Shown here one piece after another: positions 3,846 to 60,194 of a stretch of 64,000 nucleotides of DNA (within the stretch, counting starts at the first letter, position 1; every line of letters starts with the position of its first letter). Made by a program: the position numbers and the translations under genes. Below the pieces are notes generated by a model that saw only the letters and a list, made by a program, of their open reading frames with translations, did not search any database and had not been told where the DNA came from. Source of the DNA: Escherichia coli (GTDB taxonomy: Bacteria > Pseudomonadota > Gammaproteobacteria > Enterobacterales > Enterobacteriaceae); the NCBI RefSeq assembly GCF_048403405.1, contig NZ_CP183131.1; one strand, 5' to 3'.

Positions 3846-4076
3846 TTAAATTTCCAAGGTCACATCGGTTTTTGCTTTAGCGCAGCAAACCAACACTTCC
3901 CCTTCTTTGACAAATGCGATGGGCGTCTCGTCATAGGCCACTTGACCTTCGAGTAGACGAACCCGGCACATGCCACAAAAGCCACTGCGACAATGCGTTT
4001 CAACAGTGAGGCCTTTGCTTTCGATTTGCGCCAACAGCACATTGTTGCTGGCTTGAAGTTGTACGTTCATGGTCAC
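3846..4076 (-). CDS. 2Fe-2S ferredoxin-like small protein
   Basis: CRSGFCGMC (C-x4-C-x2-C) plus downstream CC; RBS AAAGGAGCG. Confidence 0.6.
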   Translation of the reverse strand: MTMNVQLQASNNVLLAQIESKGLTVETHCRSGFCGMCRVRLLEGQVAYDETPIAFVKEGEVLVCCAKAKTDVTLEI

Positions 4077-6365: not shown

Positions 6366-6488
6366 ACCCTCAATGAAGGCCTCTGAGAAAGTGGGAGGGT
6401 ATTCCCTCCTCACTTTGATTGTTCCACGAGAGCTGTGTGAACAGGAACGCTCAAACTGCCCTTTTCGGGTGCAAAGCTCAAAGACGCA

Positions 6489-13910: not shown

Positions 13911-14879
13911 TTAGCGCCATTGGTCCCCGAACACATCCTTCGCAACACGCAGGATGGCTTCACGCTCCTCTTTGGCCGCACGGATAAGCAGAGCTTGATC
14001 CAGGGCGTATTCAAGAGCATTTGGGGCACCACGGAACGCTAGAGACAGTTTCGCCCAACGCACCAACGTCCGAGTGGACATGGTGACGCTGATCTGACCA
14101 TCTTCACCGTTTTCGCCAAGAAACAGTTTGCGGACCTGATTAGCAATCCGAACCATTCCCTTCCGCACATTTTCCGGAAGTTTCGGAGTAACACGGCCAA
14201 GAATGCTGAGTTCAGCTTCCTCATCCGCATACCCTACTTTGGTGAAACGATAGCGATCCATAGCTGCGAGGTTCTGCATCATCACCCCCTGGTACAAACC
14301 AGAAGCATCACCGGACCCCGTAGAGTTACCAGTAACGACCACACGAAACATCGGGTGCGGCTTGATGATTTCCCCGCCATTCTGAGCGATCACAAGGGGA
14401 CGCCCTTCAAGGACATCGTTGAGACCAGCCAGCTCGGCAGGGTCGGCCAAATCCACCTCGTTGATGAGGAGCAGATGACCTTCACGCATAGCGACTGCCA
14501 GAGGTCCATACATGAACTTCATGACAGGTGGTTGACCAGGCTTTTCCGCGACCAGAGCGTGATGTCCAATCAGATCTGTCAGCTCCATCCGCCCGTGGGC
14601 AGTGATTTGCTGAACAGGCCAGTTGAGACGACCAGCGATCTCGGTGATACCTGAGGTTTTGCCAGACCCGGTAGGGCCGGTTACGAACAATGCGTCACCG
14701 CCAGGCTCTTTGAGATAGGCCAAGACCTCTCGCAGAAACTCTTTGCGGAAAACGTAGTTGGTATCAGTGGCAGGGATGAAAGGGTTTGAACCGTCAGCGT
14801 AGCCGATGGCCGTTACCTTCTCCGGAATGCTGGGCATACCGAAAACCTTGCTTACTGAGAATTGAGAGTATTGAGACAT
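13911..14879 (-). CDS. AAA+ ATPase (CobS/MoxR-like)
   Basis: Walker A GPTGSGKT, Walker B LLLINEVD; RBS TAGGAGCGCACCT. Confidence 0.8.
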   Translation of the reverse strand: MSQYSQFSVSKVFGMPSIPEKVTAIGYADGSNPFIPATDTNYVFRKEFLREVLAYLKEPGGDALFVTGPTGSGKTSGITEIAGRLNWPVQQITAHGRMELTDLIGHHALVAEKPGQPPVMKFMYGPLAVAMREGHLLLINEVDLADPAELAGLNDVLEGRPLVIAQNGGEIIKPHPMFRVVVTGNSTGSGDASGLYQGVMMQNLAAMDRYRFTKVGYADEEAELSILGRVTPKLPENVRKGMVRIANQVRKLFLGENGEDGQISVTMSTRTLVRWAKLSLAFRGAPNALEYALDQALLIRAAKEEREAILRVAKDVFGDQWR

Positions 14880-14900
14880 AGGTGCGCTCCTATTGTGACA

Positions 14901-15021
14901 GGCGCACCACGTCCCGAACCGGGCGGATGCGCCCGGTTGGGCTAGTAAATTAACGTTAATTTGCTGTTTGTTTTTGGCGACCAGCTATCGCACTTTTCGC
15001 TCTCCGAAGAGAACAAAATCT
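14901..15021 (-). repeat. conserved 121-bp upstream module, copy 2
   Basis: Identical to 10066..10186. Confidence 0.85.
14947..14962. promoter_or_regulatory. palindrome AAATTAACGTTAATTT inside module copy 2
   Basis: Read directly. Confidence 0.5.
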
Positions 15022-15098
15022 GCTTACTGATGGTATTCACCATGAGTAAGAAGACTTTTAAGGAGCGAGGAGAGTAGCCTCTCCTGGAGGCCACTCCC

Positions 15099-15284
15099 TC
15101 AATGGACGAACATCACCACATCGTCGTTTTGACCAATGACCCCGGTTTCTTTGGCCCACTTCACTGCTTCACTGTGCGCCTGGTAGGAGCTGGAATACAG
15201 TTTCGGATCAAATTTCACCTCGCGTCCATCAGCCAGATAGATGATGCCTGCGTGATCGTCGTAAACATGAAGATTCTGTTGCAT
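15099..15284 (-). CDS. hypothetical small protein (61 aa)
   Basis: ORF track 15099..15350; RBS AGGGGGA before internal ATG. Confidence 0.4.
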   Translation of the reverse strand: MQQNLHVYDDHAGIIYLADGREVKFDPKLYSSSYQAHSEAVKWAKETGVIGQNDDVVMFVH

Positions 15285-36771: not shown

Positions 36772-37381
36772 GCTTTCTCCGGTTTTCTTCTTTGCGCTGG
36801 AGTTGCTCCAAAACAGTTTTGGTGCGTGGCTTTCCTACATAGGTGTCGATGTAGTCCAGCACGGGCGCGTAGTTTGAAATCTTGATGGCGAACTCGTAGG
36901 AGCGTTCGCTACGCTCTTCGTTAGAAGAAGCCCCTTTGACGTAGGAATATCCGTAGACAAACACCTTGTCGCTCTTGGGCTCGTACTCAACAAAACGCGG
37001 CTCAAACCGCATGGTTACGCGGTCGTTCTTGATCTGTTGAGCTTGAATTTCGATGGCATCAATCACGTCCTGATAGATGCTCGGGGAGAGAAGCGGGGTG
37101 ATCCGTTCTTTCACAAAGTCAACGGTTCCTGGCGTCACATTGCCAAGGAGCTGAGCAAAAGCGAAACCCCAAGCCTCTTTATAGGACTGAGAGGCGTTAT
37201 TTTTCGTCACCCAGGCTTCTTCCGTGAGCGTGAAAGGCTGGATAGTGACGATGGTTTCCTTGCTGAATACTTGGACCACCAGCAGGAAAACGATAGCAAT
37301 AAGACCACCCTGGAAGATTCGTCCCCACTTATTTTCTGTTTGGGTCCCTTCCCAGGTCTTGAGATACTTTTTCAGGTTCAA
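36755..37381 (-). CDS. traE: T4SS protein TraE (VirB8-like)
   Basis: Single N-terminal TM, 208 aa; gene order. Confidence 0.75.
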   Translation of the reverse strand: MNLKKYLKTWEGTQTENKWGRIFQGGLIAIVFLLVVQVFSKETIVTIQPFTLTEEAWVTKNNASQSYKEAWGFAFAQLLGNVTPGTVDFVKERITPLLSPSIYQDVIDAIEIQAQQIKNDRVTMRFEPRFVEYEPKSDKVFVYGYSYVKGASSNEERSERSYEFAIKISNYAPVLDYIDTYVGKPRTKTVLEQLQRKEENRRKHEEQR

Positions 37382-37659
37382 GGCAAATACCTCCGGACAA
37401 ACGGATTCTTGAGAGATTTGGCCTTGGTCATGATGAACCCGGCCCAGTAGATCATGTGGAGCAGGTATCCATCCGGATGGTTATCCCTGAATCGGCGATA
37501 AAGGTTGGTTACAAGTAACCCCCCCAGAAAGCAGATCAGGGCCTTACCGATGATGACCCCTATCGTTAGCCCCAAAAGCATCGGGGCCAACTCATCTGCG
37601 CTCCACAACAGCAGATGCGGGGGCTCATCGACCCGGCGCGGTATCTTTACAGGCTTCAT
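37378..37659 (-). CDS. traL: T4SS protein TraL (VirB3-like)
   Basis: 93 aa membrane protein; first gene of traLEKBVA. Confidence 0.75.
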   Translation of the reverse strand: MKPVKIPRRVDEPPHLLLWSADELAPMLLGLTIGVIIGKALICFLGGLLVTNLYRRFRDNHPDGYLLHMIYWAGFIMTKAKSLKNPFVRRYLP

Positions 37660-38324: not shown

Positions 38325-38399
38325 AGACCCTCCAAATAACTTGTCGTCATCACGGAGTAATCGTCTCTTAATTGATCAATCTAGGAACAGTGCTGTTAC

Positions 38400-38415
38400 G
38401 GCCCATTTTGGGCAC
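38400..38415. promoter_or_regulatory. FlhDC-family activator box GGCCCATTTTGGGCAC
   Basis: In the 38325..38504 intergenic region. Confidence 0.5.
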
Positions 38416-38460
38416 TTTATGGAGGTTTATTCGAGGAGATGATAAGAGCGGGAGGCGAAA

Positions 38461-38480
38461 AACTTTCACATGTGAAAGTT
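38461..38480. promoter_or_regulatory. 20-bp perfect palindrome AACTTTCACATGTGAAAGTT (parS-like)
   Basis: Read directly. Confidence 0.6.
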
Positions 38481-49817: not shown

Positions 49818-50096
49818 TCAATTCACATGGATAGCGAATACTTCAACCGGACAATCTCCAAAGTGCGGGTGCGTTATAACACTCCTTGAGAAGCCACGCC
49901 AAGGGCGAATCTCTATCCTGGACATATCTCCAGCCTTTGGGTAGCCACACTTAACATGGACTTCATCATACTCGCGCCCCTCTAGTCTTTTTATCCAGTA
50001 GTCTGTAACGAGGCGATATTCATCTGGTTTTTCTCCAGATTTGATCTGATCGAAGTAAATCTTTTTTACGGGCAGATGAAGTATTCTCTTTTTCAT
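49818..50096 (-). CDS. ASCH/PUA-like small protein
   Basis: ORF track 49818..50117; RBS AGGTGG before MKKRILHL; ASCH-like pattern is a weak motif-level call. Confidence 0.4.
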   Translation of the reverse strand: MKKRILHLPVKKIYFDQIKSGEKPDEYRLVTDYWIKRLEGREYDEVHVKCGYPKAGDMSRIEIRPWRGFSRSVITHPHFGDCPVEVFAIHVN

Positions 50097-50121
50097 AATC
50101 ACCACCTGATAGCCCATCAGA

Positions 50122-50328
50122 CTATCTAACTATTCGACAAAACATCCCTTTTTCAATTTCTGTCTCTCTCGCCTCATGGGCCAATACAATATCCGCGATA
50201 ACACGAATATTCCCTTCATAGTTGCGAATGGCCGCATCCCTCATCGTGTCTAAAGTGTCCTGACACTTCGCTCGCCTGAATTTAACGAGCCAACTTTGCC
50301 GATCTATCTTGTCCACACCAAATCCCAT
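50122..50328 (-). CDS. hypothetical small protein (68 aa)
   Basis: ORF track. Confidence 0.35.
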   Translation of the reverse strand: MGFGVDKIDRQSWLVKFRRAKCQDTLDTMRDAAIRNYEGNIRVIADIVLAHEARETEIEKGMFCRIVR

Positions 50329-50946
50329 TTAGCGAACCATGTATCCAGCTTTTTTGGCCGCAGCATCAAGCTCGGAGGAGAAGTTAACGTCGGACTTTTC
50401 TGCCGCGTTATAGAGGGCTCCACACTTGGGCCATGAGCGTCCTACCAGTTTCATCGCCAACGCATCCGCCAGCATTTCTCGGATCTGTGTTTCAGCCTCA
50501 CCAAAATCGGCCAGAGTTTCGTCTATGCCCGACTCTTCCATCAGCTCGATGAGCTGTGGTTGTTTGAGCCAGACGCCTGTTTGCATTTCCAACTGATCTC
50601 TTGCATCGGCCACCAATTGGCGTTCAAGGGTTACGCCATTCACGGTCTTAACAAATTGCTTTGGCTGACGCTTTACCTTTTTTGGCCTGGACACATCAGA
50701 GATAACCGTCACCGGCTTCCCACGCAGTTCACGCGGCAACGGTCCACTTAGCCCCAGAACTAAGCGACGAGCGTACTCATGCTCGTATGGTTTCAACCCT
50801 CGACCTTCACGGTACATTTCAGTATCCACCAGCAGATCACCGCGCAGCCTCGCATTTTTCCGCACTTGTTCGGACAAGACCGATTTACCCTTCCCGCTGG
50901 CTCCCATTACGAGCGAGTGAGATTCTACTTTGTTATCAAAAAACAT
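50329..50946 (-). CDS. P-loop NTPase / kinase-like protein
   Basis: N-terminal Walker A GASGKGKS. Confidence 0.55.
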   Translation of the reverse strand: MFFDNKVESHSLVMGASGKGKSVLSEQVRKNARLRGDLLVDTEMYREGRGLKPYEHEYARRLVLGLSGPLPRELRGKPVTVISDVSRPKKVKRQPKQFVKTVNGVTLERQLVADARDQLEMQTGVWLKQPQLIELMEESGIDETLADFGEAETQIREMLADALAMKLVGRSWPKCGALYNAAEKSDVNFSSELDAAAKKAGYMVR

Positions 50947-51039
50947 AATTCCGCCCCCAAGGAGGTGTTGCTATAAAACATGGTTTGAACATCCGTATTT
51001 TCACGGCAATAACCGCCGGATAATGCAAGACTCCCAAAC

Positions 51040-51258
51040 CTAAATAGGTCTCCAGGTGATGACATCGAAGTCATAGCTGACTTCCGAGTTGTCGTCCGCC
51101 GTTCGCCACGAACAATCATCTTCCTGAACATGGATCAAGTCGTACTCAACAATTTTGCCCGACCAACATCCTTTAAGCTGGCAATGAACAGGCACACCGA
51201 CGACCGGCATCTTGTCGTTGACGCTGATCCACGGTTCTTGCTTTTGATCCAGATCCAC
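51040..51258 (-). CDS. hypothetical small protein (DUF551-like pattern)
   Basis: ORF track; W-x-S-V-x-D-x-x-P ... TWRPI pattern. Confidence 0.35.
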   Translation of the reverse strand: MDLDQKQEPWISVNDKMPVVGVPVHCQLKGCWSGKIVEYDLIHVQEDDCSWRTADDNSEVSYDFDVITWRPI

Positions 51259-51261
51259 CGG

Positions 51262-51525
51262 TTAGTCCTCTATGAACGATTTAATGGATCGCCCATCAAA
51301 AAACAGTTTCCCAGTTCCTGATACCGAATGTACTTCTGGAGCTGCCTTCCCTTTCAGGAGTTTCTGATAGCGCACCGCGTCTTTGAGCTCAGAGATCCTG
51401 ACGCCAATGAGTGTGGCCGTCTCCTCAACTGTTAAAATACGGTCCCAAAAGCTGGTGGCGCTGTTATTGCGCCCACCGATACTCTGGGCAACGCACTCTG
51501 TTCTGGCCGCTTTTCCCTTTGCCAT
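51262..51525 (-). CDS. small HTH DNA-binding protein
   Basis: ORF track 51262..51543; helix-turn-helix-like TVEETATLIGVRISELKDAVR. Confidence 0.45.
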   Translation of the reverse strand: MAKGKAARTECVAQSIGGRNNSATSFWDRILTVEETATLIGVRISELKDAVRYQKLLKGKAAPEVHSVSGTGKLFFDGRSIKSFIED

Positions 51526-52120
51526 TGGCAATGTCCTCTTCATTCTTCTCAGCCCCCAGCTTACTCAGTATTTCAGCTTTTGTAGCGCGATGGCCGCGCA
51601 TTAAAAGAGCATTCAGCAGGTATCCAGTGAACACCTCTGTACTCGGCATACGGTCAAGCAACTCAACATACTGCTCATCCGTCAAATCATGGATCTCACA
51701 ATATTTTTCCACCGCCTTTTCGTAGGCTTCTGCGTAGCCATGAGTGGAAATCCTGAAAGCAATATCCCCATTGCCGTAGCCTGGCTTTGTGACGAGAAAA
51801 CAAGGCGCGAAGTAGGTTCTCTTCACCCCCATCCGGCTCCGGTTCTCAATGCTGATATAAGCCCTCAGCCCCTCAGCAATGATGTTTGGCCCGGAGTTGC
51901 GTCGCCGCTTACAAGTCTTATTCTGACGCTTCACCTCTTCTGCCTCAGCTTCCCACTTTCGGTCCAAGCTGTAGGCCAGCCGGTGAGCTGTTGCGTAGGA
52001 ATACTCTCTCAAGGAGAAGTATTCCTGCCGGTAATCATCCGCCACCCCAACTGTTCGTGCGACACGGAACCCGACGAAACCGGCGTCATGGGTTCCCTCG
52101 CCGTAGTAAATGACTGCCAT
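51464..52120 (-). CDS. DNA-binding protein with two AP2-like repeats
   Basis: Repeated Y..G.F...EEA..AY-like patterns (REYSYATAHRLAYSLD; GYAEAYEKAVEKY). Confidence 0.4.
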   Translation of the reverse strand: MAVIYYGEGTHDAGFVGFRVARTVGVADDYRQEYFSLREYSYATAHRLAYSLDRKWEAEAEEVKRQNKTCKRRRNSGPNIIAEGLRAYISIENRSRMGVKRTYFAPCFLVTKPGYGNGDIAFRISTHGYAEAYEKAVEKYCEIHDLTDEQYVELLDRMPSTEVFTGYLLNALLMRGHRATKAEILSKLGAEKNEEDIANGKGKSGQNRVRCPEYRWAQ

Positions 52121-53547
52121 TATCTACCTTCCTTACTTCTGATACCGTGCTGCACCACGGTATGGCGACCGCAATTCACATTCAGGTGATCCCGAACTGC
52201 GGCCATGACCGCTGAATGCAATCTGTAATCCACACTCTGCCCAAGCGTTTCTGTCGCTTGTTCTTTTGCCATCCACGAAACATCAAAGCTATCAGGTATC
52301 GACATCAACTCCTGAACCAGATCGACCGATGGCTTGTAAATGCGGCCACCGTCTTGGATGTACACTGCATCCTTTACCCCACGATCCTGAGACTTGAGGA
52401 TGGTCGGGCAACTGGTGCTTTCTCTCGTCAAGAACGCAGGCATCCTGCGAGAAGTTGACTCTCTGGCCTGAATTGACTTCAACACTGTGACGTCAGCACA
52501 ATCCCCGAGGTGCTTCTCGATCACCGGCCACAATCGTCCACCAGCTCTCTGCTCAGGTTTCGGTGGAACGAACCCAGGGAAGACCGACGCCACCATGTAA
52601 TAGCGTTCTCGCCCCTGGTAAGCGCCGAAATCCAGACCGTTCAAGACCATCTCAGTGAGGAAGTACCCCATCCGCCGCAGTGTCGTTCCCATCATCGCCC
52701 CGGCTCCGGATGCTTTGAAGTTCGGGACGTTTTCCACCAGCACGACGGCAGGGTTCACGACCTCGATCTGTTTTAGTGCCGGGTAAACCATGTCGAGCAT
52801 GGTGGAGAGATCCTCAAGAGAACGCTCTTTGTCCCTTGGACTTTTGGCGTTTGAGTGGTCATCACACCCCAACGAGTAATGGGCCAAACCAATTGGTGGG
52901 CACTCCGCCAGCAAGGCTCCAAGGCGATCCAGCTCCAGGTGATGAATGTCTTCATTCAGCAGGATACGCGGGGAGCTGTTCACCAGCGTATTGAGCGCAT
53001 GTACTTCACTCAGGTTCCGCCCGGATGCTCTGTCTCTGGCTTCAACTGGACGATGCTCCAAAACAATCTCAGCCTTCCAGCCAAGCGCTTCCATAACATG
53101 AATGTCTACCCCGCCAGTCAATGCCACAAAGGCACGGAAAGGGCTGGTTTTTCTGAACCGATCCGCAATGGCAAAGGCTCTGTTTGCGACAGGAGTGAAG
53201 ACTACTCGGCCTTTTCGCATTTCGACGTGGAAACGCTCTGTATAGCGAGGGAAGCACTTATCTATGAGCCCTTGTCCAGAAAACTCAATAACGGTTTCCA
53301 GCGGGTTGTTGGAGCGACTCTTTGGTTGATACCGGCGCTGATAAACCTGGTGTGTCTGTAGTTCATCGGTCGCTGGGATCACCGAAAAACCGCCCATCCC
53401 CTCCCCTGGCTCAACGGCGATGCCCATACCTGGCTTGAACCCCATAACATCCAAAAAGTTGGACGAAACCCTAACCTTGCGTTTATCGCCTACTCGATTG
53501 AACGCAAGTTGTTTGGTTACTACGGAGGGGGAGACGATCGGTAACAT
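52120..53547 (-). CDS. C5-methyltransferase-like protein, paralog of the gene at 1..1007, Gly-Cys in place of catalytic Pro-Cys
   Basis: ALTGGVD (motif I-like), SLGCDDHSNAKS (motif IV position), VENVPNF (motif VI); related N-terminal domain. Confidence 0.6.
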   Translation of the reverse strand: MLPIVSPSVVTKQLAFNRVGDKRKVRVSSNFLDVMGFKPGMGIAVEPGEGMGGFSVIPATDELQTHQVYQRRYQPKSRSNNPLETVIEFSGQGLIDKCFPRYTERFHVEMRKGRVVFTPVANRAFAIADRFRKTSPFRAFVALTGGVDIHVMEALGWKAEIVLEHRPVEARDRASGRNLSEVHALNTLVNSSPRILLNEDIHHLELDRLGALLAECPPIGLAHYSLGCDDHSNAKSPRDKERSLEDLSTMLDMVYPALKQIEVVNPAVVLVENVPNFKASGAGAMMGTTLRRMGYFLTEMVLNGLDFGAYQGRERYYMVASVFPGFVPPKPEQRAGGRLWPVIEKHLGDCADVTVLKSIQARESTSRRMPAFLTRESTSCPTILKSQDRGVKDAVYIQDGGRIYKPSVDLVQELMSIPDSFDVSWMAKEQATETLGQSVDYRLHSAVMAAVRDHLNVNCGRHTVVQHGIRSKEGR

Positions 53548-53550
53548 TGG

Positions 53551-54051
53551 TCAACCTCTTTTCTTCTTGTTTTGCTCGCGCTTCACCATTGCTCCAGCAG
53601 CTTTCAGAAGTCTCTGGTTCTCCGCCAGCTCCTCTTGGAGTTCCTGAGTATCCTCTTCTGTCTGAGGCTTTTTCAGCTCGGCCTCGCAATATTGGACCTC
53701 TTCCTGCAAGCTGACTTTCGCAAACTTGAGAGCGGCCAGTCGCGTCGTATAAACGCCAAAAGGCAATTCGCCACCTTCCCGGAACTGCTTCAAACACCAG
53801 CTCGGTATAGATGGCAACCAACCAAAGTCCCCATTCTTCCGTGACCTTTTCCCCCACGTAATCCCATCTAACTTTTGGGCAAGATTGACATAGCGTTGAT
53901 CGCTGGTTGAGTTGCGTCGTTTCTGAATAGAGCGAACTATCCACTCTGTAACCTCGACCTTTGCTTTATCATCATCAGAGATGTAATAAAGGGCTGCGTA
54001 CAACACAGCGCCTTTACGAATGACTGATGGTGGGTATGCCTGGGCTTTCAT
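53551..54051 (-). CDS. hypothetical protein (166 aa)
   Basis: ORF track; RBS TAGGGGGATAG. Confidence 0.45.
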   Translation of the reverse strand: MKAQAYPPSVIRKGAVLYAALYYISDDDKAKVEVTEWIVRSIQKRRNSTSDQRYVNLAQKLDGITWGKRSRKNGDFGWLPSIPSWCLKQFREGGELPFGVYTTRLAALKFAKVSLQEEVQYCEAELKKPQTEEDTQELQEELAENQRLLKAAGAMVKREQNKKKRG

Positions 54052-54059
54052 CTATCCCC

Positions 54060-54392
54060 CTATCGCTTTTTCTGTCCGACAAGACGGAGATGATCGGCGG
54101 CCAAGTCATACTGCTCGTTTTTGTCGCGGCGGCGGAATCTGTCAAAAAACTTCCCTCGTGGCAGGGTTTCTTCCATAGCGATCAGGCGGTTCAGCCACAC
54201 TTCTTGAGGTAGCATCCCTGCTGGAGTCGGCCCGAGCTTACGTCCTTCCTTGACGTGCTCCATTGTTTGCGTGGCAGTAAAAATCGCACCACCAAACTTT
54301 CTCCACTTGAATTGCAGGGGCATATCTGGAGACTCATCCAGCATCAATTTCTTATTGGTTTGTTCTGTCACGACAATTACTCCACCATCCAT
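54060..54392 (-). CDS. hypothetical basic protein (110 aa)
   Basis: ORF track. Confidence 0.4.
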   Translation of the reverse strand: MDGGVIVVTEQTNKKLMLDESPDMPLQFKWRKFGGAIFTATQTMEHVKEGRKLGPTPAGMLPQEVWLNRLIAMEETLPRGKFFDRFRRRDKNEQYDLAADHLRLVGQKKR

Positions 54393-54883
54393 TCTTCACT
54401 AAGCAGGAACGCCCAGCGCTCTTCTGCTTTTTCTGGGTTGTCTTTGGCCTGTTTGATCATGATCTCGGCGGCGTTAAAGCCTACCTCTCCACTGAACCGG
54501 CCCCATGAATGGCTATGCCACTCGCGCATCACACTTCGGCCAAGCGATGCAAGTTCTGGACTTACACCCTCATGGAGGGCATAGAGCTCCCAAGCATCCC
54601 ACCCGTATCGTAATAGGTTGTGCCCTGGGGCGTTAAAGGCCTGAGCAGCCTTGAACCGCTCTCCAGGCTCCTTCCCTCTAACATCCACACCCTGGAGCAC
54701 CAACCCCATTACCACTTCAATGACCGGCTCGCGTTGCTTCTTTGCCAGCTCGATGGCAGCCACCAGCATTGCTTTGGCGTCAGCAAATTTCCCATGCCCT
54801 TGGCACATACCGCAGGTTTCTTTGGAAGGGGAAAAGTCATAAACACCGGAACCAGCACAGAGGCGGCATGTCATGTCAATCAT
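54377..54883 (-). CDS. protein with DnaJ-type zinc finger (two CxxCxGxG repeats)
   Basis: CRLCAGSG and CGMCQGHG; RBS AGGAGAGAAG; ORF track 54377..54901. Confidence 0.5.
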   Translation of the reverse strand: MIDMTCRLCAGSGVYDFSPSKETCGMCQGHGKFADAKAMLVAAIELAKKQREPVIEVVMGLVLQGVDVRGKEPGERFKAAQAFNAPGHNLLRYGWDAWELYALHEGVSPELASLGRSVMREWHSHSWGRFSGEVGFNAAEIMIKQAKDNPEKAEERWAFLLSEEWMVE

Positions 54884-55550
54884 GGGCTCTTCTCTCCTCA
54901 TACTCTTCGATGCGCTCTTTCAGACGCTGAACCACTGGTGCGAGCTCAGGGATAGCTTCCGCTTCCTCAAGCGTGTATCGCTTGTCTTCCTGGTAATCGA
55001 CTATTTGAGGAGGCCTTGGCTGTTTAGGGAACTCAGCAAAGTCATTCAGCGACATCGAGGTAGGAAGTCCTCCTTCAATCTCACCTTTTTCGTTGAGTGA
55101 CTGGGTGACGATAAGCTGTGTTCCGCCCACCTCGGTATCAAAGCGGTCATCAAAGCGCTCACCGATAGTCCAGCCGCCACGGCCAAGAACACAGGTCGTA
55201 CTCATACGTAGGCGATTGAATGCTTTAGCGTCATCCCAGTTCAAAGGATTTTCATCCATGAGGAAAAAAGGCGCTTCGTCCCGAACGAACACCTTGGACT
55301 TGGCGTTATCGAAGATCGGCCCAAACACCCCCTGCTGGAGGTATGGTTCGACCTTCTCTGCAAGATCCTGGTGCCCTTGAGAACGCAGCGCCTCATAGAG
55401 CTGGGTGATTGTTTGTTTGCCGGTGCCCGGAAGGCAGGACAATACTGTCTGCTTTTCCTCGTCACTCAGGCTTACCATTCTGGACAAAAAGCTGACTACC
55501 AGCTCGTTGTGCCCATCGACCGTTTCAATGTTGAGCTTGTTCTCGTCCAT
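54876..55550 (-). CDS. hypothetical protein (224 aa)
   Basis: ORF track 54876..55583; RBS GAGGAA. Confidence 0.45.
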   Translation of the reverse strand: MDENKLNIETVDGHNELVVSFLSRMVSLSDEEKQTVLSCLPGTGKQTITQLYEALRSQGHQDLAEKVEPYLQQGVFGPIFDNAKSKVFVRDEAPFFLMDENPLNWDDAKAFNRLRMSTTCVLGRGGWTIGERFDDRFDTEVGGTQLIVTQSLNEKGEIEGGLPTSMSLNDFAEFPKQPRPPQIVDYQEDKRYTLEEAEAIPELAPVVQRLKERIEEYEERRAHD

Positions 55551-55806
55551 CTTCTTCCTCAGTAATCGGTTCGATAAATTCAATGGAGTCCATGCTTACA
55601 TGACTGATAATGGCTTTCAGGCCGCAGCAGTCGCATGGTTCAAAGGTCAGTTCTGATCCCTTGGGAGACTGATGCGTGACCGTTGCCACAGCCCCTAGAG
55701 GGATCACCCCCCAGCCGTTTTTTAGTACCCGAGTAGTTCTGACCAGCCGACCTTTGTACTCTCGTTTCAGTTTCGGATGCGGCACTACCGCATATCGCTT
55801 ACTCAT
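55525..55806 (-). CDS. hypothetical small protein (93 aa)
   Basis: ORF track 55525..55893; RBS AAGGGG before MSKRYAV. Confidence 0.4.
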   Translation of the reverse strand: MSKRYAVVPHPKLKREYKGRLVRTTRVLKNGWGVIPLGAVATVTHQSPKGSELTFEPCDCCGLKAIISHVSMDSIEFIEPITEEEDGREQAQH

Positions 55807-56185
55807 TTCGGTCCCCTTGTACCAAAGGCTCGACAACCAGCTCTTGAGCTTCGTCCCAGTCGGACACCTTTGCATCACCAAACGCAAAGGCAATTCGCAT
55901 AGCCACTGTCGGCCTGCCTATTTTCATCAAGTAAGCCGCAGCACCGGCACACATCGACTCTTGTCCCGAAGGTGCATAGTTACCCTCTTCATCCCATTCA
56001 CCACCTGACTTTGAATGCACGGTCTTGTGGCAATGAAACGTCGTCATGTCGTTTTCAACGATGTCGTTGATGATGCCTTCTAATCGCCCAGGGACCAGCT
56101 CGATAGCGCCCTCCTTCCGGAATGGACAGTTGGCGCAAGGTTTCTTCAAACGGAGATGATTTGCTTGCTTTGGCATACATATCAC
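55799..56185 (-). CDS. hypothetical Cys/His-containing protein (possible zinc ribbon)
   Basis: CANCPF and FHCHKT; non-ATG (GTG) start in track, ATG 9 nt downstream. Confidence 0.4.
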   Translation of the reverse strand: MICMPKQANHLRLKKPCANCPFRKEGAIELVPGRLEGIINDIVENDMTTFHCHKTVHSKSGGEWDEEGNYAPSGQESMCAGAAAYLMKIGRPTVAMRIAFAFGDAKVSDWDEAQELVVEPLVQGDRNE

Positions 56186-56194
56186 TTTTACAGT

Positions 56195-56207
56195 ATCATT
56201 TTATGAT
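56195..56207. promoter_or_regulatory. palindrome ATCATTTTATGAT (operator-like), shared with parA promoter
   Basis: Same sequence reverse-complemented at 59783..59795. Confidence 0.45.
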
Positions 56208-56274
56208 TCTATGATATAGCCATATTCCGTGTAGTCAATATCTCACTAACAATTACTTTCTATCGGACGCTTAC

Positions 56275-56291
56275 GCGCCCATTTTGGGCAG
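56275..56291. promoter_or_regulatory. FlhDC-family activator box GCGCCCATTTTGGGCAG
   Basis: In divergent intergenic hub 56186..56494. Confidence 0.5.
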
Positions 56292-56341
56292 ATAGACAAG
56301 TTATTTGGGCGTTTGGAGTGTGCGAGGTGGACAGCGGGGAG

Positions 56342-56359
56342 ACTTTCACATGTGAAAGT
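56342..56359. promoter_or_regulatory. 18-bp palindrome ACTTTCACATGTGAAAGT (parS-like)
   Basis: Read directly. Confidence 0.6.
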
Positions 56360-56494
56360 TTTGTTTCTTGGTATCGTTTTATTGTCCCTTGATATTATTT
56401 TATGATGCTGTAATAATCATAAATAAGGGCCGCATCGCTCTTCGACCTTCGTTGCAGCCCTTACAACACAATCAAGCAATTAAGGAGCTTTGTT

Positions 56495-56638
56495 ATGCTG
56501 CAAGGCAATACTAACACGAATAAGCGCATCCCGCTCGCGGCGTTCATGAAATGGCCGCTGGCGAAACGTCAGGACTTCATCGACCGGGAAATGTCCGGTT
56601 GCCCCGACTTTATCAAGACGTCTTTGCTTCGGCATTAA
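56495..56638 (+). CDS. small leader ORF (47 aa)
   Basis: Manual; RBS AAGGAGCTTTGTT; followed by hairpin 56661..56691. Confidence 0.3.
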   Translation: MLQGNTNTNKRIPLAAFMKWPLAKRQDFIDREMSGCPDFIKTSLLRH

Positions 56639-56660
56639 GGCGATCAGGCAGGAAAGCAAA

Positions 56661-56691
56661 GAACCTCGCTTCGGCGGGGTTCTTCGTTTCT
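56661..56691 (+). terminator. terminator/attenuator hairpin between leader ORF and methyltransferase-like gene
   Basis: GAACCTCGC-TTCG-GCGGGGTTC then TTCGTTTCT. Confidence 0.5.
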
Positions 56692-56729
56692 ACCTCTTGA
56701 ATGTTTCGTCAGAACAAACTGGAGCGCTT

Positions 56730-57365
56730 ATGTCACCAGAAACACAGCAACTTACATCCAAGGCTTTATCTCTCATCGAGCAGTCCCGATACAGAATGGG
56801 CACATCTCGGTTTGTTGAGGCCTTTATTGACCAGTGGGCATACTTGCAGACTGGCCTATACCCAGCCAAGGAGGAGATCCCGGAAGAACTTCAGCCGGTC
56901 GCCTTCGAGCTCTCTCACGTCCTGTCTGCCGCCATTAAGCGCGACCCCACCAGCGATGTTTTGGGTTACGTCCTAAGCATGTCTGGCTTCCACAAGAAGG
57001 GCACCAATTACTTCCCCACTCCTCCAGAGATTGGCCGCTTGATGTCACTCATTGTTGGCTCACAGTCTTCGGCAGACTTTTATGAGCCCTGCTGTGGTTC
57101 TGGCATCAACGCCATTCACTGGATGGAAAACCTGATCGAGAACCACGGTCCCGAAGCATTGAGAGAAGCCTCAATCTACCTGGAAGACATCGATCCGTTG
57201 ATGGTGAAGTGCTGCATGATCCAGCTATTCCATTATTTCGAGTCCCGCAATACCACTCCCAAAACGCTGAGTATCGTCGGCATAGACACCCTTAGCAGAC
57301 GAACCAAGAACATCGCCTACTACGCCGAAAAACCTCCAGCAACCGCCGCTACCGTGGCAGCATAA
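56730..57365 (+). CDS. truncated N6-adenine methyltransferase-like protein (SAM-binding half only)
   Basis: YFPTPPEIGRLM (HsdM motif X-like) and FYEPCCGSG (motif I); no NPPF/NPPY before stop; RBS CTGGAGCG; ORF track 56697..57365. Confidence 0.55.
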   Translation: MSPETQQLTSKALSLIEQSRYRMGTSRFVEAFIDQWAYLQTGLYPAKEEIPEELQPVAFELSHVLSAAIKRDPTSDVLGYVLSMSGFHKKGTNYFPTPPEIGRLMSLIVGSQSSADFYEPCCGSGINAIHWMENLIENHGPEALREASIYLEDIDPLMVKCCMIQLFHYFESRNTTPKTLSIVGIDTLSRRTKNIAYYAEKPPATAATVAA

Positions 57366-57390
57366 AAAAACCCGCCGATTGGCGGGTTTT
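57364..57390. terminator. bidirectional intrinsic terminator
   Basis: A7-CCCGCC-GATT-GGCGGG-TTTT. Confidence 0.7.
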
Positions 57391-57417
57391 GCATTCAATG
57401 CGCTGCTCTATGGCACC

Positions 57418-57690
57418 TTACAGTTTTCCGTACCGGTTCAAGAACGAAGACCTGTCTAAGATCCCCCAGTCTGTCAGCATGTAGTAGCCGGTGGCACCTC
57501 GTTCGCCGGTAGACTCCCTGACGAACAAGATATTCATTCCGAACTCATCACGCAGGGCAGACAACTGTCTCTTGATCGTTGATTCAGGAATATTTGTTGC
57601 CTTGTGAAGGTCTTGGAGACTTGGCTTCTCCGTTTTAGACAGGGCATTCACCAAAGCAAATTTTCTTTTCATGTCCTGTGAGATCTTCAT
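57418..57690 (-). CDS. small DNA-binding protein, third gene of partition operon (IncC 053-like position)
   Basis: ORF track 57418..57696; HTH-like LQDLHKATNIPESTIKRQLSALR. Confidence 0.45.
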   Translation of the reverse strand: MKISQDMKRKFALVNALSKTEKPSLQDLHKATNIPESTIKRQLSALRDEFGMNILFVRESTGERGATGYYMLTDWGILDRSSFLNRYGKL

Positions 57691-57738
57691 ATTCACCTGT
57701 TCTTGACAGGCCCAACCTCTCTGGCTGGGCCTCCTTTA

Positions 57739-58920
57739 TTAGCCTTCGACACTCAGGAGTTCAATGTCTGACACAGGCACATGAACATGCTTTTCCTTGC
57801 CTTCGCCATCGAGCGTTTTAACCCAGACAGTAGACGGAACCAGAGCAACACGGTCGGTCATGATGACTCCACGTTTGGTCTCGCCATCCAGGTTAACGTT
57901 GACAGCAAAAATCAAACTGTCAGCCCGGACGTTCTTCCATTCCTTGTCCTTCGGCAGAGGAGGAAGAGCATCACCGCCTTCTTCATCTTTGTCCTTGCCG
58001 CTGTTATCTGGCTGCTTGACAGGATCTTTGTGCTCACCCTCTTCATCACGCAAAGGGTCTTCGTCATCATCGTCCTGACCATTGGAATTTTTACCCCCTT
58101 CCAGTTCCTCCTGGGCAAGGTTCAGGTCGTCATTCCCGGTTTGTTCCGACGTACCATCCCCACCCGAGTTGAGGGATTGCTCGTCGGTGTTGCCAGCGCC
58201 AAGCTCATCATTCTGGTGGGAGCCAGTCAGTGGGCCTTTTTCCATTTCGTCTTTGATACGTTTGGCATCATTCAGCAGCTCACGGCTTTGTTTACGAGTA
58301 ATCCCGTCAGACATAGCCACCGCGCAGACGGCGCGACATCTTTCTTCATTCAGATCGAACAAGAGACGAAGGTTATTCAAGGTCTCTGTATCAGAACATA
58401 CTTCATTATCGTATAACTCACGCACACAGTCAGGTAGCTTGAGCAACGACAGATGCGTAGATACGAAAGTGATATTCTTACCGAGCCGATCAGCAATATC
58501 CTTTTGCTTCCAACCTTCTTCAATAAACAGGTTTAACGCCTCGGCAATCTCTACCGGAGTCAAGTCATCCCGCTGGATGTTTTCGATCAGCTCACCAGCA
58601 GTCTCGTCCAAGTTGTTCTGGACCTTATCATTCACCACCAAGTCAATGGTCTCGATACCAGCGTGTTTACACGCTCTCCAACGCCGCTCCCCTTTTTGGA
58701 TGACGAACTTGCCTTCTTCGTTCTTCGGGAACACGATGATCGGAGACTGCTGCCCTTCGGTCAGCAAGGTTGCCGCCAGCTCTTCAATGTTACGGAAGCG
58801 CTTACGAACCTGGACCTTGGATACAACGTCGTCAACAGGTACGGTAAGAACCTCTTTGCCTTTCTTGCCTTTGGCGGCTTTAGCAAGTTCGGACAGGCCT
58901 TTTAAATTGTTCAATGCCAT
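57739..58920 (-). CDS. parB: partition protein ParB (KorB-like, 393 aa)
   Basis: ParB N-terminal box KGERRWRAC; acidic disordered middle; directly follows parA. Confidence 0.75.
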   Translation of the reverse strand: MALNNLKGLSELAKAAKGKKGKEVLTVPVDDVVSKVQVRKRFRNIEELAATLLTEGQQSPIIVFPKNEEGKFVIQKGERRWRACKHAGIETIDLVVNDKVQNNLDETAGELIENIQRDDLTPVEIAEALNLFIEEGWKQKDIADRLGKNITFVSTHLSLLKLPDCVRELYDNEVCSDTETLNNLRLLFDLNEERCRAVCAVAMSDGITRKQSRELLNDAKRIKDEMEKGPLTGSHQNDELGAGNTDEQSLNSGGDGTSEQTGNDDLNLAQEELEGGKNSNGQDDDDEDPLRDEEGEHKDPVKQPDNSGKDKDEEGGDALPPLPKDKEWKNVRADSLIFAVNVNLDGETKRGVIMTDRVALVPSTVWVKTLDGEGKEKHVHVPVSDIELLSVEG

Positions 58921-59709: not shown

Positions 59710-59757
59710 ACCCACCTCTATTTTGGTTTCTCGCAGGTGATCAAGACCACCCCCAAA

Positions 59758-59773
59758 CTTTCACATGTGAAAG
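59758..59773. promoter_or_regulatory. palindrome CTTTCACATGTGAAAG (parS-like) upstream of parA
   Basis: Read directly. Confidence 0.6.
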
Positions 59774-59782
59774 ATTGTAGCG

Positions 59783-59795
59783 ATCATAAAATGAT
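59783..59795. promoter_or_regulatory. palindrome ATCATAAAATGAT (operator-like) upstream of parA
   Basis: Read directly. Confidence 0.45.
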
Positions 59796-59837
59796 ACTGC
59801 AATATCTAATTATGGTTCTGTTAAAACAAACTTTAAA

Positions 59838-59862
59838 CAAAAAAACGGCCATGAAGGCCGCT
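59838..59862 (-). terminator. intrinsic terminator
   Basis: Minus-sense GCGGCC-TTCAT-GGCCG then TTTTTTTG. Confidence 0.6.
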
Positions 59863-59882
59863 TATTGACAAGGTTTGTGCTG

Positions 59883-60194
59883 TCAGCGCAATTGATTTGC
59901 TGCTCCAAGCCCATTCGCCAATAACTGCATCGCATCGTTGAACAGCGCGGAGCCCCGTTCCGGTGTGAGCAATTCCGGCATATCTTCTCGCGGCCAAGTA
60001 CCGGCTACTTGAATGAGCAAACTGGCAGCCCAGTGGATCTGCTTTTCTTCACTTTCATCGGCCAGAGTGCATACGACGGGGAAACCGTACTTACGCCCCC
60101 AGCGACTCACCTCTTTGAACGATACCAGCTCAGGCTTTTGCAAATCCCGGCTGTAGGCCTCAGCTATCATGTGGTTCAGTTCTTTAGCGTCCAT
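59883..60194 (-). CDS. hypothetical protein (103 aa)
   Basis: ORF track; RBS GAGTGGGA; divergent from sul2. Confidence 0.4.
   Translation of the reverse strand: MDAKELNHMIAEAYSRDLQKPELVSFKEVSRWGRKYGFPVVCTLADESEEKQIHWAASLLIQVAGTWPREDMPELLTPERGSALFNDAMQLLANGLGAANQLR

What the first reader, a model, noticed from the sequence alone, without database searches (positions are those of the whole stretch)
56186..56494. Dense divergent regulatory hub, possible origin-like region
In about 310 bp: palindrome ATCATTTTATGAT (also upstream of parA at 59783..59795), a GCGCCCATTTTGGGCAG box with an adjacent half-site, the 18-bp parS-like palindrome, and AT-rich inverted repeats (TTATGAT-N9-ATCATAA, 56393..56424). 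It separates the 13-gene operon from a rightward leader ORF and methyltransferase-like gene. Activator, partition-protein and operator sites together with AT-rich inverted repeats are also what an oriT or oriV-proximal control region would look like. I cannot place mobI or oriT with confidence.
Basis: inference. Interest (0 to 1): 0.5.

Follow-up and report, generated by a model that had tools for sequence, protein, structure and literature searches.

The report
IncC plasmid divergent promoter-control region
This 310-bp stretch is the already mapped control region between two gene sets of an IncC multidrug-resistance plasmid (an AcaCD activator box plus a ParB-binding parS site), not a transfer or replication origin; its AT-rich palindromes appear to belong to an undescribed repressor operator that recurs at six promoters of the plasmid.

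Summary
The window is IncC (A/C2) plasmid backbone, and 56186-56494 is the vcrx035/vcrx036 intergenic region of pVCR94. All four motifs are present where stated and occur more often than chance predicts.

Two are already published:
- The GCCCATTTTGGGC box is the AcaCD site. It has a ChIP-exo peak and a leftward transcription start at 56230-56232 (Carraro 2014).
- The 18-bp palindrome is one of about 13 IncC parS sites (Murányi 2024).

The origin reading fails. IncC has a single oriT, mapped just upstream of mobI, which lies outside the window. No oriT sequence is present, and repA is about 36 kb away.

The new element is the ATCATTTTATGAT palindrome. It is the core of a 23-bp palindrome, ACAGTATCAT-N3-ATGATACTGT. 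This occurs six times in a 162-kb IncC plasmid, always between genes and always over a promoter: twice here, in PparA and at three other sites. A plasmid whose ParB is only 56% identical also carries it.

Published data fit a plasmid-encoded repressor. Pvcrx035 and Pvcrx036 are constitutive without the plasmid but silent within it, and PparA needs an unidentified extra repressor. The binder is unproven; the winged-helix protein 053 is my best candidate.

Most of the region is known; one element gives a testable new lead.

The parts
56190..56212 (.). Operator site A: ACAGTATCATTTTATGATTCTAT. It differs by 2 mismatches from the 23-bp palindrome ACAGTATCAT-N3-ATGATACTGT; the core ATCATTTTATGAT is at 56195-56207.
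   Evidence: expected 0.00. The block AG.ATC.TTTTATGA is conserved in four lineages while its flanks vary.
56211..56238 (-). Leftward sigma-70-like promoter of vcrx036: TTGACT (56238-56233), 16-nt spacer, TATCAT (56216-56211). The predicted start near 56204 falls inside site A.
   Evidence: Promoter scan. Both hexamers are invariant while the spacer varies across IncC, IncA, pB39_C and a metagenomic relative. It would explain the constitutive activity reported for Pvcrx036 (PMC8373056). The start site is inferred.
56187..56215 (+). Rightward promoter-like site TTTACA-17-TATGAT with site A filling the spacer. This is the same layout as PparA and the pTB221 19726-19754 promoter.
   Evidence: Function is not shown. 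Its -10 overlaps the leftward -10, so conservation does not tell the two apart.
56230..56232 (-). Published AcaCD-dependent transcription start of the vcrx036 operon (pVCR94dX 20445-20447).
   Evidence: PMC4207636 Table S3. The mapping window = 76677 - pVCR94dX coordinate was checked on both flanking genes.
56267..56295 (-). AcaCD box (MAST motif, p = 5.3e-10) with palindromic core GCCCATTTTGGGC at 56277-56289, lying at -64 to -36 of the leftward start. An overlapping reverse motif (56272-56300) points toward vcrx035; no start site or expression was found for it.
   Evidence: Motif definition GCCCNDWWWGGGC at -64 to -37 comes from PMC8373056.
56304..56310 (+). Second TTTGGGC half-site, 21 bp after the one in the box. 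It is duplicated as an 8-bp TTTGGGCG repeat in the 97.9%-identity IncC variant.
   Evidence: Role unknown.
56340..56361 (.). IncC parS site, 22-mer AGACTTTCACATGTGAAAGTTT (perfect 18-bp palindrome 56342-56359). This is the 'R55_55/vcrx036' copy.
   Evidence: PMC10954446 gives the family definition and ParB gel shifts on three other copies. It is invariant in all lineages aligned. Binding to this particular copy is inferred.
56389..56417 (+). Probable vcrx035 promoter: TTGATA-17-AATAAT with TG upstream of the -10. Operator site B (56389-56411) fills it, with core ATTATTTTATGAT and a full right arm ATGATGCTGT. The inverted repeat TTTATGAT/ATCATAAA lies at 56399-56423.
   Evidence: It is nearly invariant (96-100%) in four lineages, although the downstream ORF is only about 82% identical in the most distant one.
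56424..56494 (+). Conserved 5' leader of vcrx035, with a hairpin at 56424-56463 and a Shine-Dalgarno AAGGAG at 56482-56487.
   Evidence: The fold is not significant (z = -1.66) and there is no Rfam match.
56495..56638 (+). vcrx035, a 47-aa ORF found only in IncA/C-type elements. Most substitutions are at third codon positions, as expected of a real coding gene.
   Evidence: AlphaFold2 gives three short helices at pLDDT 69.5. No Pfam match.
56654..56689 (+). Terminator-like hairpin between vcrx035 and the methylase-like gene. The stem is conserved, the loop varies, and a T-run follows.
55799..56176 (-). vcrx036, the first gene of the leftward operon. It encodes a Cys-rich 125-aa protein of unknown function.
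   Evidence: phrog_5443, 1e-22.
59757..59802 (-). PparA, a paralogous promoter: TTGCAG (59802-59797), a 17-nt spacer holding ATCATTTTATGAT (59795-59783), TACAAT (59779-59774), then parS (59774-59757).
   Evidence: PMC10954446 places the promoter and parS.

Best explanation
The region is the divergent promoter-control region between the vcrx036 operon (leftward) and vcrx035-vcrx034 (rightward) of an IncC plasmid. It integrates three inputs.

(a) Activation, shown. The FlhDC-like master activator AcaCD binds the GCCCATTTTGGGC box and starts leftward transcription at 56230-56232 as a class II activator.

(b) ParB. Binding is shown for the site family; its effect here is inferred. The KorB-domain ParB of the plasmid binds the parS palindrome lying between the two promoter sets. 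That places it about 120 bp upstream of the leftward start and about 75 bp upstream of the predicted rightward start. The site would serve as one of about 13 scattered centromere sites, and probably as a KorB-like operator.

(c) A third repressor, inferred and new. A plasmid-encoded dimeric repressor binds a 23-bp palindrome, ACAGTATCAT-N3-ATGATACTGT, that covers the core of sigma-70 promoters. Site A overlaps the constitutive vcrx036 promoter and lies at +20 to +42 of the AcaCD-driven transcript. Site B fills the vcrx035 promoter. The same operator fills the -35/-10 spacer of PparA and lies between genes at three other places in the maintenance part of the backbone; two of these carry a promoter-like site.

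Together with ParB, this repressor would keep these otherwise constitutive promoters silent while the plasmid is established. AcaCD would override the block on the vcrx036 side during transfer. The logic resembles KorA/KorB control in IncP-1 plasmids.

The binder is not identified. The winged-helix protein 053, third gene of the par operon, is the best candidate.
For: Identity of the region: the 3-kb stretch 55000-58000 that spans the region is 100% identical to many IncC plasmids. The mapping to pVCR94dX is exact on both flanking genes.

AcaCD: one ChIP-exo peak, motif p = 5.3e-10, a transcription start 36-64 bp downstream, and vcrx036 expression rising from 0 to 320 with AcaCD. The motif matches GCCCNDWWWGGGC.

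parS: 5 copies in the window and 13 in pTB221. Published ParB gel shifts exist, and the authors themselves note that parS lies next to the AcaCD box at R55_55/vcrx036. The same box-then-parS spacing occurs at 38399-38479. The ParB homologue carries ParB_N, HTH_ParB and KorB domains.

Operator:
- The 23-mer with up to 3 mismatches hits only pTB221 3946, 15229, 19731 and site A, against 0.00 expected. There are no hits in the other 112 kb.
- PparA and site B each have one full arm plus the inner half of the other arm.
- All six copies lie between genes, and five of them (all but the 15229 copy) sit over a -35/-10 pair.
- The symmetry falls in spacer positions that RNA polymerase does not read.
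- The motif is kept in pVAS19, where ParB is 56% and 053 is 76% identical with the recognition stretch IPESTIKRQL unchanged.

Repression in trans:
- Pvcrx035 and Pvcrx036 lacZ fusions are constitutive in plasmid-free E. coli, yet both genes read 0 in the plasmid without AcaCD.
- PparA is repressed 8-11-fold by whole IncC plasmids but only partly by parAB053 alone. The authors therefore inferred a further regulator encoded elsewhere on the backbone.

053 is a winged helix (HTH_43, 8.8e-10; PDB 3ke2, 6.5e-4).
Against: - No binding protein for the 23-bp palindrome has been shown. Everything about it is sequence inference combined with published expression discrepancies.
- The palindrome is imperfect at every copy. 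Single bases of the 13-bp core drift between lineages: ATGAC in IncA and pB39_C, ATCGT in L011, ATGGT in pB39_C and L011 at PparA.
- Its arms contain promoter-like hexamers (TTTACA / TGTAAT). Part of the conservation could therefore reflect promoter function or common descent of promoter modules.
- If 053 were the only binder, parAB053 alone should repress PparA fully, and it does not.
- The published RNA-seq is shallow and noisy, so readings of '0' are weak evidence.
- ParB binding to this particular parS copy was not tested.
- The authors of PMC8373056 state that the vcrx035 and vcrx036 promoters lack canonical -35/-10 elements. This conflicts with my scan and may reflect where they looked.
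Confidence: 0.6

Rival explanations
1. Origin-like region: the AT-rich inverted repeats plus partition and activator sites mark an oriT, or a control region next to oriV.
For: AT-rich blocks of 27-28% GC carrying inverted repeats. Known oriTs often overlap promoters, as Hegyi et al. remark.
Against: - Functional mapping found a single IncA/C oriT immediately upstream of mobI. Deleting it abolishes transfer, and a library screen of the whole plasmid recovered only that locus and a recombination hot spot.
- mobI and repA lie outside the window, about 36-38 kb away on the circle.
- No oriT 20-mers occur in the window, and no shared 10-mers occur in the region.
- The only direct repeat (21 bp, two copies, 76% identical) is not conserved in IncA.
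- Every inverted repeat is accounted for as parS, the AcaCD box or a promoter/operator.
Confidence: 0.02
2. Only two regulators act here, AcaCD and ParB. The ATCAT/ATGAT palindromes are promoter modules that were copied around the backbone, or AT-rich promoter sequence, with no dedicated repressor. Silencing in the plasmid would come from ParB spreading or sliding from parS, or from the H-NS-like Acr2 acting on AT-rich DNA.
For: The arms contain -35-like and -10-like hexamers. ParB binds next to four of the six copies. The plasmid encodes an H-NS-family protein. The core palindrome drifts by single bases between lineages.
Against: - Twofold symmetry over 23 bp (22 of 23 positions at pTB221 3946) is not needed for a promoter, and it lies mostly in the spacer.
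- The motif survives in a plasmid family with 56% ParB identity while the surrounding sequence does not.
- ParAB053 alone does not give full PparA repression, so another factor exists.
Confidence: 0.22
3. The palindrome is an operator, but its binder is not 053. It would instead be the 47-aa vcrx035 product, autoregulating from site B, or the truncated ParB-like regulator R55_24 (WP_001061574.1). Either could be the 'missing' PparA co-repressor that SGI1 Sci counteracts.
For: - Both are encoded outside the par operon, as the published genetics requires.
- vcrx035 has an operator in its own promoter, is a real conserved gene and is present in every lineage that has sites A and B.
- R55_24 has a ParB dimerisation domain and a weak ParB HTH. 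A parS and an operator copy lie 11 and 52 bp past its stop codon.
Against: - vcrx035 has no recognisable DNA-binding fold. It read 0 in RNA-seq. Some homologues carry a proline in its last helix.
- R55_24 has no close homologue in IncA plasmids, yet these keep sites A, B and the PparA operator.
- The 11-kb pVAS19 stretch examined keeps the operator but shows neither gene; the rest of that plasmid was not read.
Confidence: 0.15

Closest known systems
AcaCD-dependent promoters of IncA/C plasmids (Carraro et al. 2014, PMC4207636; Durand et al. 2021, PMC8373056)
   Same: This is the published vcrx035-036 divergent AcaCD site itself. It has the same sequence, motif, ChIP-exo peak and leftward transcription start.
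   Different: Nothing differs for the box. The published work does not explain why these two promoters are constitutive outside the plasmid. The sigma-70 hexamers and the operator described here offer an explanation.
IncC parS / ParB (KorB-domain) partition sites (Murányi et al. 2024, PMC10954446)
   Same: The 14-bp core TTTCACATGTGAAA with a GTTT flank. This copy is listed by the authors as the one near R55_55/vcrx036, lying upstream of an AcaCD box.
   Different: This copy was not itself tested in gel shifts. Any regulatory effect on the two flanking promoters is still a proposal.
KorA/KorB global co-repression of IncP-1 plasmid RK2 (McLean et al. 2025, PMC11790492)
   Same: A KorB-domain ParB with many operator and centromere copies scattered in promoter regions. 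A second short palindromic operator lies directly over core promoters, often tens of bp from the ParB site. Partition and maintenance operons are under joint control.
   Different: - No KorA homologue was identified.
- The operator sequences are unrelated: OA is GTTTAGCTAAAC and OB is TTTAGCSGCTAAA (from my own knowledge).
- The second operator spans -35 to -10 rather than only the -10.
- An activator (AcaCD) is layered on top.
- CTP-dependent sliding of IncC ParB has not been shown.
IncA/C oriT upstream of mobI (Hegyi et al. 2017, PMC5587640)
   Same: AT-rich, contains inverted repeats and overlaps a promoter.
   Different: A different locus outside the window, with no sequence similarity, no mobI neighbour and no 14-bp direct repeats. 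Functional screens did not recover this region.

Membership tests
AcaCD (FlhDC-like) class II activated promoter | Palindromic motif GCCCNDWWWGGGC | tested here: met
   GCCCATTTTGGGC at 56277-56289. Motif definition from PMC8373056.
AcaCD (FlhDC-like) class II activated promoter | Binding site at -64 to -37 of a mapped transcription start | tested here: met
   The published start 20445-20447 maps to 56230-56232 and the motif 20382-20410 maps to 56267-56295, which is -64 to -36.
AcaCD (FlhDC-like) class II activated promoter | AcaCD occupancy and AcaCD-dependent transcription | not testable with these tools
   Published for this sequence: a ChIP-exo peak and vcrx036 rising from 0 to 320. A single-copy lacZ fusion, however, was constitutive.
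IncC parS (ParB/KorB-type site) | 14-bp core TTTCACATGTGAAA with AAAC/GTTT flanks, the G and T of the right flank being essential | tested here: met
   AGACTTTCACATGTGAAAGTTT at 56340-56361. There is one change in the left flank, and the right flank GTTT is intact.
IncC parS (ParB/KorB-type site) | 12-14 copies scattered over the backbone | tested here: met
   13 exact cores in pTB221 and 5 in the window.
IncC parS (ParB/KorB-type site) | Binding by IncC ParB | not testable with these tools
   Gel shifts have been published for three other copies only.
oriT of IncA/C (MOBH) plasmids | Located immediately upstream of mobI | tested here: not met
   mobI is at pTB221 161548-162087, whereas this region is at about 37154-37471. 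Its neighbours are vcrx035 and vcrx036.
oriT of IncA/C (MOBH) plasmids | Sequence of the mapped oriT (IR2-IR5 and the 14-bp direct repeats) | tested here: not met
   No oriT 20-mers in the window and no shared 10-mers in the region.
oriT of IncA/C (MOBH) plasmids | Mobilisation in cis by the helper plasmid | not testable with these tools
   The published library screen recovered only the mobI-proximal locus and a recombination site, and a second oriT was excluded.
Iteron-type oriV | Adjacent to repA, with several conserved direct repeats | tested here: not met
   repA is about 36 kb away. The only direct repeat is 21 bp in two copies at 76% identity, and it is not conserved in IncA.
KorA/KorB-type global co-repression | ParB homologue with a KorB domain and multiple operator copies in promoter regions | tested here: met
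   ParB_N + HTH_ParB + KorB domains (annotation). Four of the six palindrome copies lie within about 130 bp of a parS, and the published list places most parS copies between genes.
KorA/KorB-type global co-repression | A second DNA-bound repressor at the core promoter that cooperates with the ParB homologue | tested here: inconclusive
   A candidate operator was found at six promoters. No protein has been assigned, no KorA homologue was sought by sequence, and cooperation is untested.

The most novel reading that the evidence does not exclude
IncA/C plasmids run a KorA/KorB-like global silencing circuit. A small plasmid repressor (053 or vcrx035) would bind the 23-bp ACAGTATCAT-N3-ATGATACTGT operator and cooperate with ParB loaded at nearby parS sites to shut down at least six maintenance promoters. 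This repressor would also be the unidentified target through which the SGI1 protein Sci derepresses parAB053 and expels the helper plasmid.
Probability: 0.3. Interest if true: 0.6.

Novelty: new member of a known kind. Interest (0 to 1): 0.4.

Why it matters
IncC plasmids are major carriers of multidrug resistance and the obligate helpers of SGI1-type resistance islands. The region itself is already explained, so the origin idea can be dropped.

The useful new result is a concrete, mutable DNA target for the missing repressor of the partition operon inferred in 2024. The same target offers a single explanation for why two 'AcaCD-dependent' promoters behave constitutively once removed from the plasmid.

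If confirmed, it would define a maintenance regulon shared by IncA, IncC and pAQU-like Vibrio plasmids. It would also give a handle on how SGI1 destabilises its helper.

Tried and rejected
- **Whole-collection scan for the operator.** The pattern ATYATAAAATGATACTG in genome contigs returned only scattered hits in AT-rich, unrelated genomes. The pattern is too short and AT-rich for 298 Gb, so the scan was uninformative.
- **RNA element in the vcrx035 leader.** Rfam gave nothing above threshold. The leader hairpin is not more stable than shuffled sequence (z = -1.66). The lineages are too similar to show covariation.
- **vcrx035 as a ribbon-helix-helix repressor.** It has no Pfam hit. AlphaFold2 gives three short helices at moderate confidence with no strand. 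Homologues exist only at 83% identity or more. The idea remains unsupported.
- **The 103-aa ORF upstream of parA (59883-60194) as a KorA analogue by position.** It has no Pfam or NCBIfam hit and is acidic with few basic residues. A conserved terminator separates it from PparA. Rejected.
- **The 21-bp tandem repeat at 56361-56402 as iterons.** It is not conserved in IncA. Rejected.
- **R55 and pVCR94 records.** They could not be fetched by accession, so pTB221 was used as the reference plasmid.
- **Scripting.** Only some fetched loci were readable by the Python tool. Whole-plasmid scans were therefore done with the DNA search.
Full report
**What the window is.** The 3-kb stretch 55000-58000 that spans the region is 100% identical to hundreds of IncC (A/C2) plasmids from Klebsiella, Salmonella, Escherichia, Vibrio and other genera. 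In the RefSeq annotation of pTB221, a run of 11 co-directional minus-strand genes lies to the left of the region, at window 49818-56176. It begins with a 125-aa Cys-rich protein and includes a thymidylate-kinase-like gene and a DNA cytosine methyltransferase.

To the right lie, in order:
- a 47-aa ORF (56495-56638) and an 'N-6 DNA methylase' gene (56730-57365), both on the plus strand;
- the convergent par operon on the minus strand: parA 59709-58924, parB with a KorB domain 58920-57739, and the winged-helix gene 053 at 57696-57418;
- a 103-aa ORF, followed by the sul2 resistance island.

The stretch 56186-56494 is therefore the vcrx035/vcrx036 intergenic region of the model plasmid pVCR94dX. 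The relation window = 76677 - pVCR94dX coordinate reproduces both flanking genes exactly.

**Check of the observation.**
- The 13-bp palindrome ATCATTTTATGAT lies at 56195-56207 and at 59783-59795. A one-mismatch copy lies at 56394-56406 (3 matches against 0.08 expected).
- The exact ATCAT-N3-ATGAT form occurs only at those two places in the whole 162-kb plasmid.
- GCGCCCATTTTGGGCAG lies at 56275-56291. A second TTTGGGC lies 21 bp downstream.
- The perfect 18-bp palindrome lies at 56342-56359 and has five copies in the window, against 0.00 expected.
- The inverted repeat TTTATGAT/ATCATAAA lies at 56399-56423.

The gene count of 13 is not reproduced. RefSeq has 11 co-directional genes, and the published operon prediction has 9.

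**What is already known about it.** Carraro et al. 2014 (PMC4207636, Table S3) found one AcaCD ChIP-exo peak here, containing two overlapping motifs.
- The first (p = 5.3e-10) maps to window 56267-56295 on the minus strand. It is followed by a 5'-RACE start at 56230-56232. It drives vcrx036-vcrx044, whose expression rises from 0 without AcaCD to 320 with it.
- The second points toward vcrx035. It has no start site and no expression.

Durand et al. 2021 (PMC8373056) define the motif as GCCCNDWWWGGGC at -64 to -37, and this site fits.

Murányi et al. 2024 (PMC10954446) showed that TTTCACATGTGAAA with AAAC/GTTT flanks is the IncC parS. R55 has 14 copies. ParB shifted three of them in gel assays, although not this copy. 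The authors explicitly list a copy near R55_55/vcrx036 and note that parS sits upstream of the AcaCD box at four operons.

I count 13 exact cores in pTB221. The same box-then-parS spacing occurs at window 38399-38479.

**The origin reading.** Hegyi et al. 2017 (PMC5587640) mapped a single IncA/C oriT to about 150 bp immediately upstream of mobI. Deleting it abolished transfer. A plasmid-wide library screen recovered only that locus and a recombination hot spot, and the authors excluded a second oriT.

In pTB221, mobI is at 161548-162087 and repA at 201-1301, while this region lies near 37.3 kb. I read the true oriT. It has its own repeats, such as GGATAGGAATTGGATAGGAATTGG. No 20-mer of it occurs in the window. 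The only 9-mer it shares with the region is a piece of an AcaCD box.

The single direct repeat in the region (21 bp, two copies, 76% identical) is not conserved in IncA. The region is therefore neither oriT nor an oriV-proximal element, and mobI and oriT are simply outside this window.

**What the AT-rich palindromes are.** Reading both regulatory regions side by side shows that the shared sequence is longer than 13 bp. CAGTATCATTTTATGAT is identical in PparA and at 56191-56207.
- In PparA it fills the 17-nt spacer of TTGCAG-N17-TACAAT, and parS starts at the last base of the -10. This agrees with the promoter placement in PMC10954446.
- At 56187-56215 it fills the spacer of a plus-strand TTTACA-N17-TATGAT.
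- The one-mismatch copy fills TTGATA-N17-AATAAT (56389-56417, with TG upstream of the -10). This is the obvious promoter for vcrx035.

Scanning the rest of the plasmid turned up further copies that reveal the full element, a 23-bp palindrome ACAGTATCAT-N3-ATGATACTGT. The additional copies are:
- ACAGTATTATAAAATGATACTGT at pTB221 3946;
- ACAGTATCATAAAATGAATCTGT at 15229, 28 bp after a parS core;
- ACAGCATCACATAATGATACTAT at 19731, just after a terminator and 32 bp upstream of a Shine-Dalgarno and ATG.

With up to three mismatches, the 23-mer hits only these three places and site A (window 56190-56212). There are no hits in the other 112 kb, against 0.00 expected. PparA and site B each keep one complete 10-bp arm plus the inner five bases of the other arm.

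All six copies lie between genes. All are in the first 38 kb of the plasmid, its maintenance part. Four lie within about 130 bp of a parS.

**Conservation.** I aligned the region from four lineages: IncC of the window's type, the 97.9% IncC variant, IncA, and pB39_C, plus a metagenomic relative. Four points stand out.
- parS is invariant, and so is the centre of the AcaCD box.
- The hexamers TTGACT (56238-56233) and TATCAT (56216-56211) of a minus-strand sigma-70-like promoter are invariant while their 16-nt spacer varies. This is the signature of a real promoter. Its predicted start, near 56204, lies inside site A.
- The stretch from the vcrx035 -35 hexamer to its start codon is 96-100% identical, even where the ORF has fallen to about 82%.
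- The operator core is conserved as a block, but single outer bases drift (ATGAC, ATCGT, ATGGT), so the symmetry is not strictly maintained.

The strongest comparative point is pVAS19, a pAQU-like Vibrio plasmid whose ParB is only 56% identical.
- Its PparA keeps TTGCAGTATCAT, a 17-nt spacer, TAGAAT and parS.
- It has a clean copy, CAAGTATTATAAAATGATACTGT, framed as TTTACA-N18-TGTAAT. This copy sits right after the terminator of its 053 homologue.
- Its 053 is 76% identical to the IncC protein, with the stretch IPESTIKRQL unchanged.

**Link to published expression data.** Durand et al. report that lacZ fusions of the vcrx035 and vcrx036 promoters, in single copy in plasmid-free E. coli, are constitutive. 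They could not explain this. In the plasmid, both genes read 0 without AcaCD.

Murányi et al. found that PparA is strong on its own and repressed 8-11-fold by whole IncC plasmids, but only partly by parAB053. They concluded that a further regulator is encoded elsewhere on the backbone, and that SGI1 Sci acts through it.

A shared operator over all three promoters, next to parS, fits both observations. The held literature contains no mention of the palindrome.

**Most likely mechanism.**
- Shown: AcaCD binds the box and fires the leftward promoter.
- Shown for the site family, inferred for this copy: ParB binds parS.
- Inferred: a plasmid-encoded dimeric repressor binds sites A and B (and PparA and three other sites) across the -35 to -10 region. 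Alone or together with ParB, it silences promoters that would otherwise be constitutive.

Site A would block the sigma-70 vcrx036 promoter at its start. It would sit at +20 to +42 of the AcaCD-driven transcript, which AcaCD-dependent transcription evidently overcomes.

The arrangement resembles KorA/KorB control of RK2. There, a KorB clamp loaded at its operator is captured by KorA bound at the promoter (PMC11790492). No KorA homologue was identified here, however, and the operator sequences are unrelated.

**Who binds the operator.** Three candidates were considered, plus one rejected.
- **053, best candidate.** It is a winged helix (HTH_43, 8.8e-10; PDB 3ke2). It co-occurs with the operator in IncC, IncA, pB39_C, the metagenomic relative and pVAS19. 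It is reported to be needed for plasmid stability (cited) although dispensable for ParAB-driven partition of a mini-replicon. Against it, parAB053 alone does not fully repress PparA.
- **vcrx035.** It would be autoregulated from site B and lies outside the par operon. It has no recognisable DNA-binding fold.
- **The truncated ParB-like protein R55_24.** It has a ParB_C domain and a weak ParB HTH. A parS and an operator copy lie 11 and 52 bp past its stop codon. It has no close homologue in IncA plasmids, which keep the operators.
- **The 103-aa ORF upstream of parA.** It is acidic and matches no family, so I rejected it.

**Verdict.** The 'regulatory hub' reading is correct and largely already published. 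The origin reading is refuted. The part not found in the literature I could search is the 23-bp operator and its six-promoter regulon. This is a prediction from sequence and from published discrepancies, and it needs binding and reporter experiments.

Noticed in passing
window 56389-56494 compared with 56495-56638: The vcrx035 promoter and 5' leader are more conserved than the ORF they precede: 96-100% against about 82% nucleotide identity in the most distant relative (L011). This suggests that the non-coding part carries dense binding sites or a functional RNA.
   Followed up: partly
window 56654-56689: A conserved GC-rich hairpin with a variable loop and a T-run sits between vcrx035 and the methylase-like gene. 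vcrx035 may therefore be a short separate transcript, with only read-through reaching the methylase gene. The weak Rfam hits here (istR, RsmY, isrB) probably just reflect this hairpin, with which they overlap.
   Followed up: partly
window 56304-56311; L006 around 4210-4225: About 550 IncC records (97.9% identity class) differ from the window's type by an 8-bp tandem duplication, TTTGGGCG, immediately after the AcaCD box. This changes the box-to-parS distance by 8 bp.
   Followed up: no
window 38399-38479: A second AcaCD-like box (CGGCCCATTTTGGGCAC) is followed 46 bp later by a perfect parS. This is the same arrangement as in the finding, and is probably the vcrx068 promoter noted by Murányi et al.
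   Followed up: partly
L002 (pTB221) 3946-3968, 15229-15251 and 19731-19753: Three further copies of the 23-bp palindrome lie outside the window: one beside a PAPS-reductase-like gene, one after the ParB-like regulator gene next to a parS, and one before a gene that IS26 has truncated in this plasmid.
   Followed up: partly
L002 (pTB221) 14629-15177: A 182-aa 'transcriptional regulator' is a ParB lacking its N-terminal domain (ParB_C dimerisation domain plus a weak ParB HTH). It is present in about 985 IncC records but has no close homologue in IncA plasmids.
   Followed up: partly
L009 (pVAS19) 3990-4045 and 6432-6454: A pAQU-like Vibrio plasmid with only 56% ParB identity keeps the exact IncC parS core, the PparA layout and one copy of the 23-bp palindrome. 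The cis-elements are more conserved than ParB itself.
   Followed up: partly
window 55799-56176: The first gene of the leftward operon encodes a Cys-rich 125-aa protein (CxxC and HCH motifs). It matches only a phage family of unknown function (phrog_5443, 1e-22).
   Followed up: no
window 59843-59863: A strong terminator (stem AAGCGGCC/GGCCGTTT followed by a T-run) sits directly upstream of PparA. It is conserved even in pVAS19, and it insulates the par operon from the 103-aa ORF upstream.
   Followed up: no
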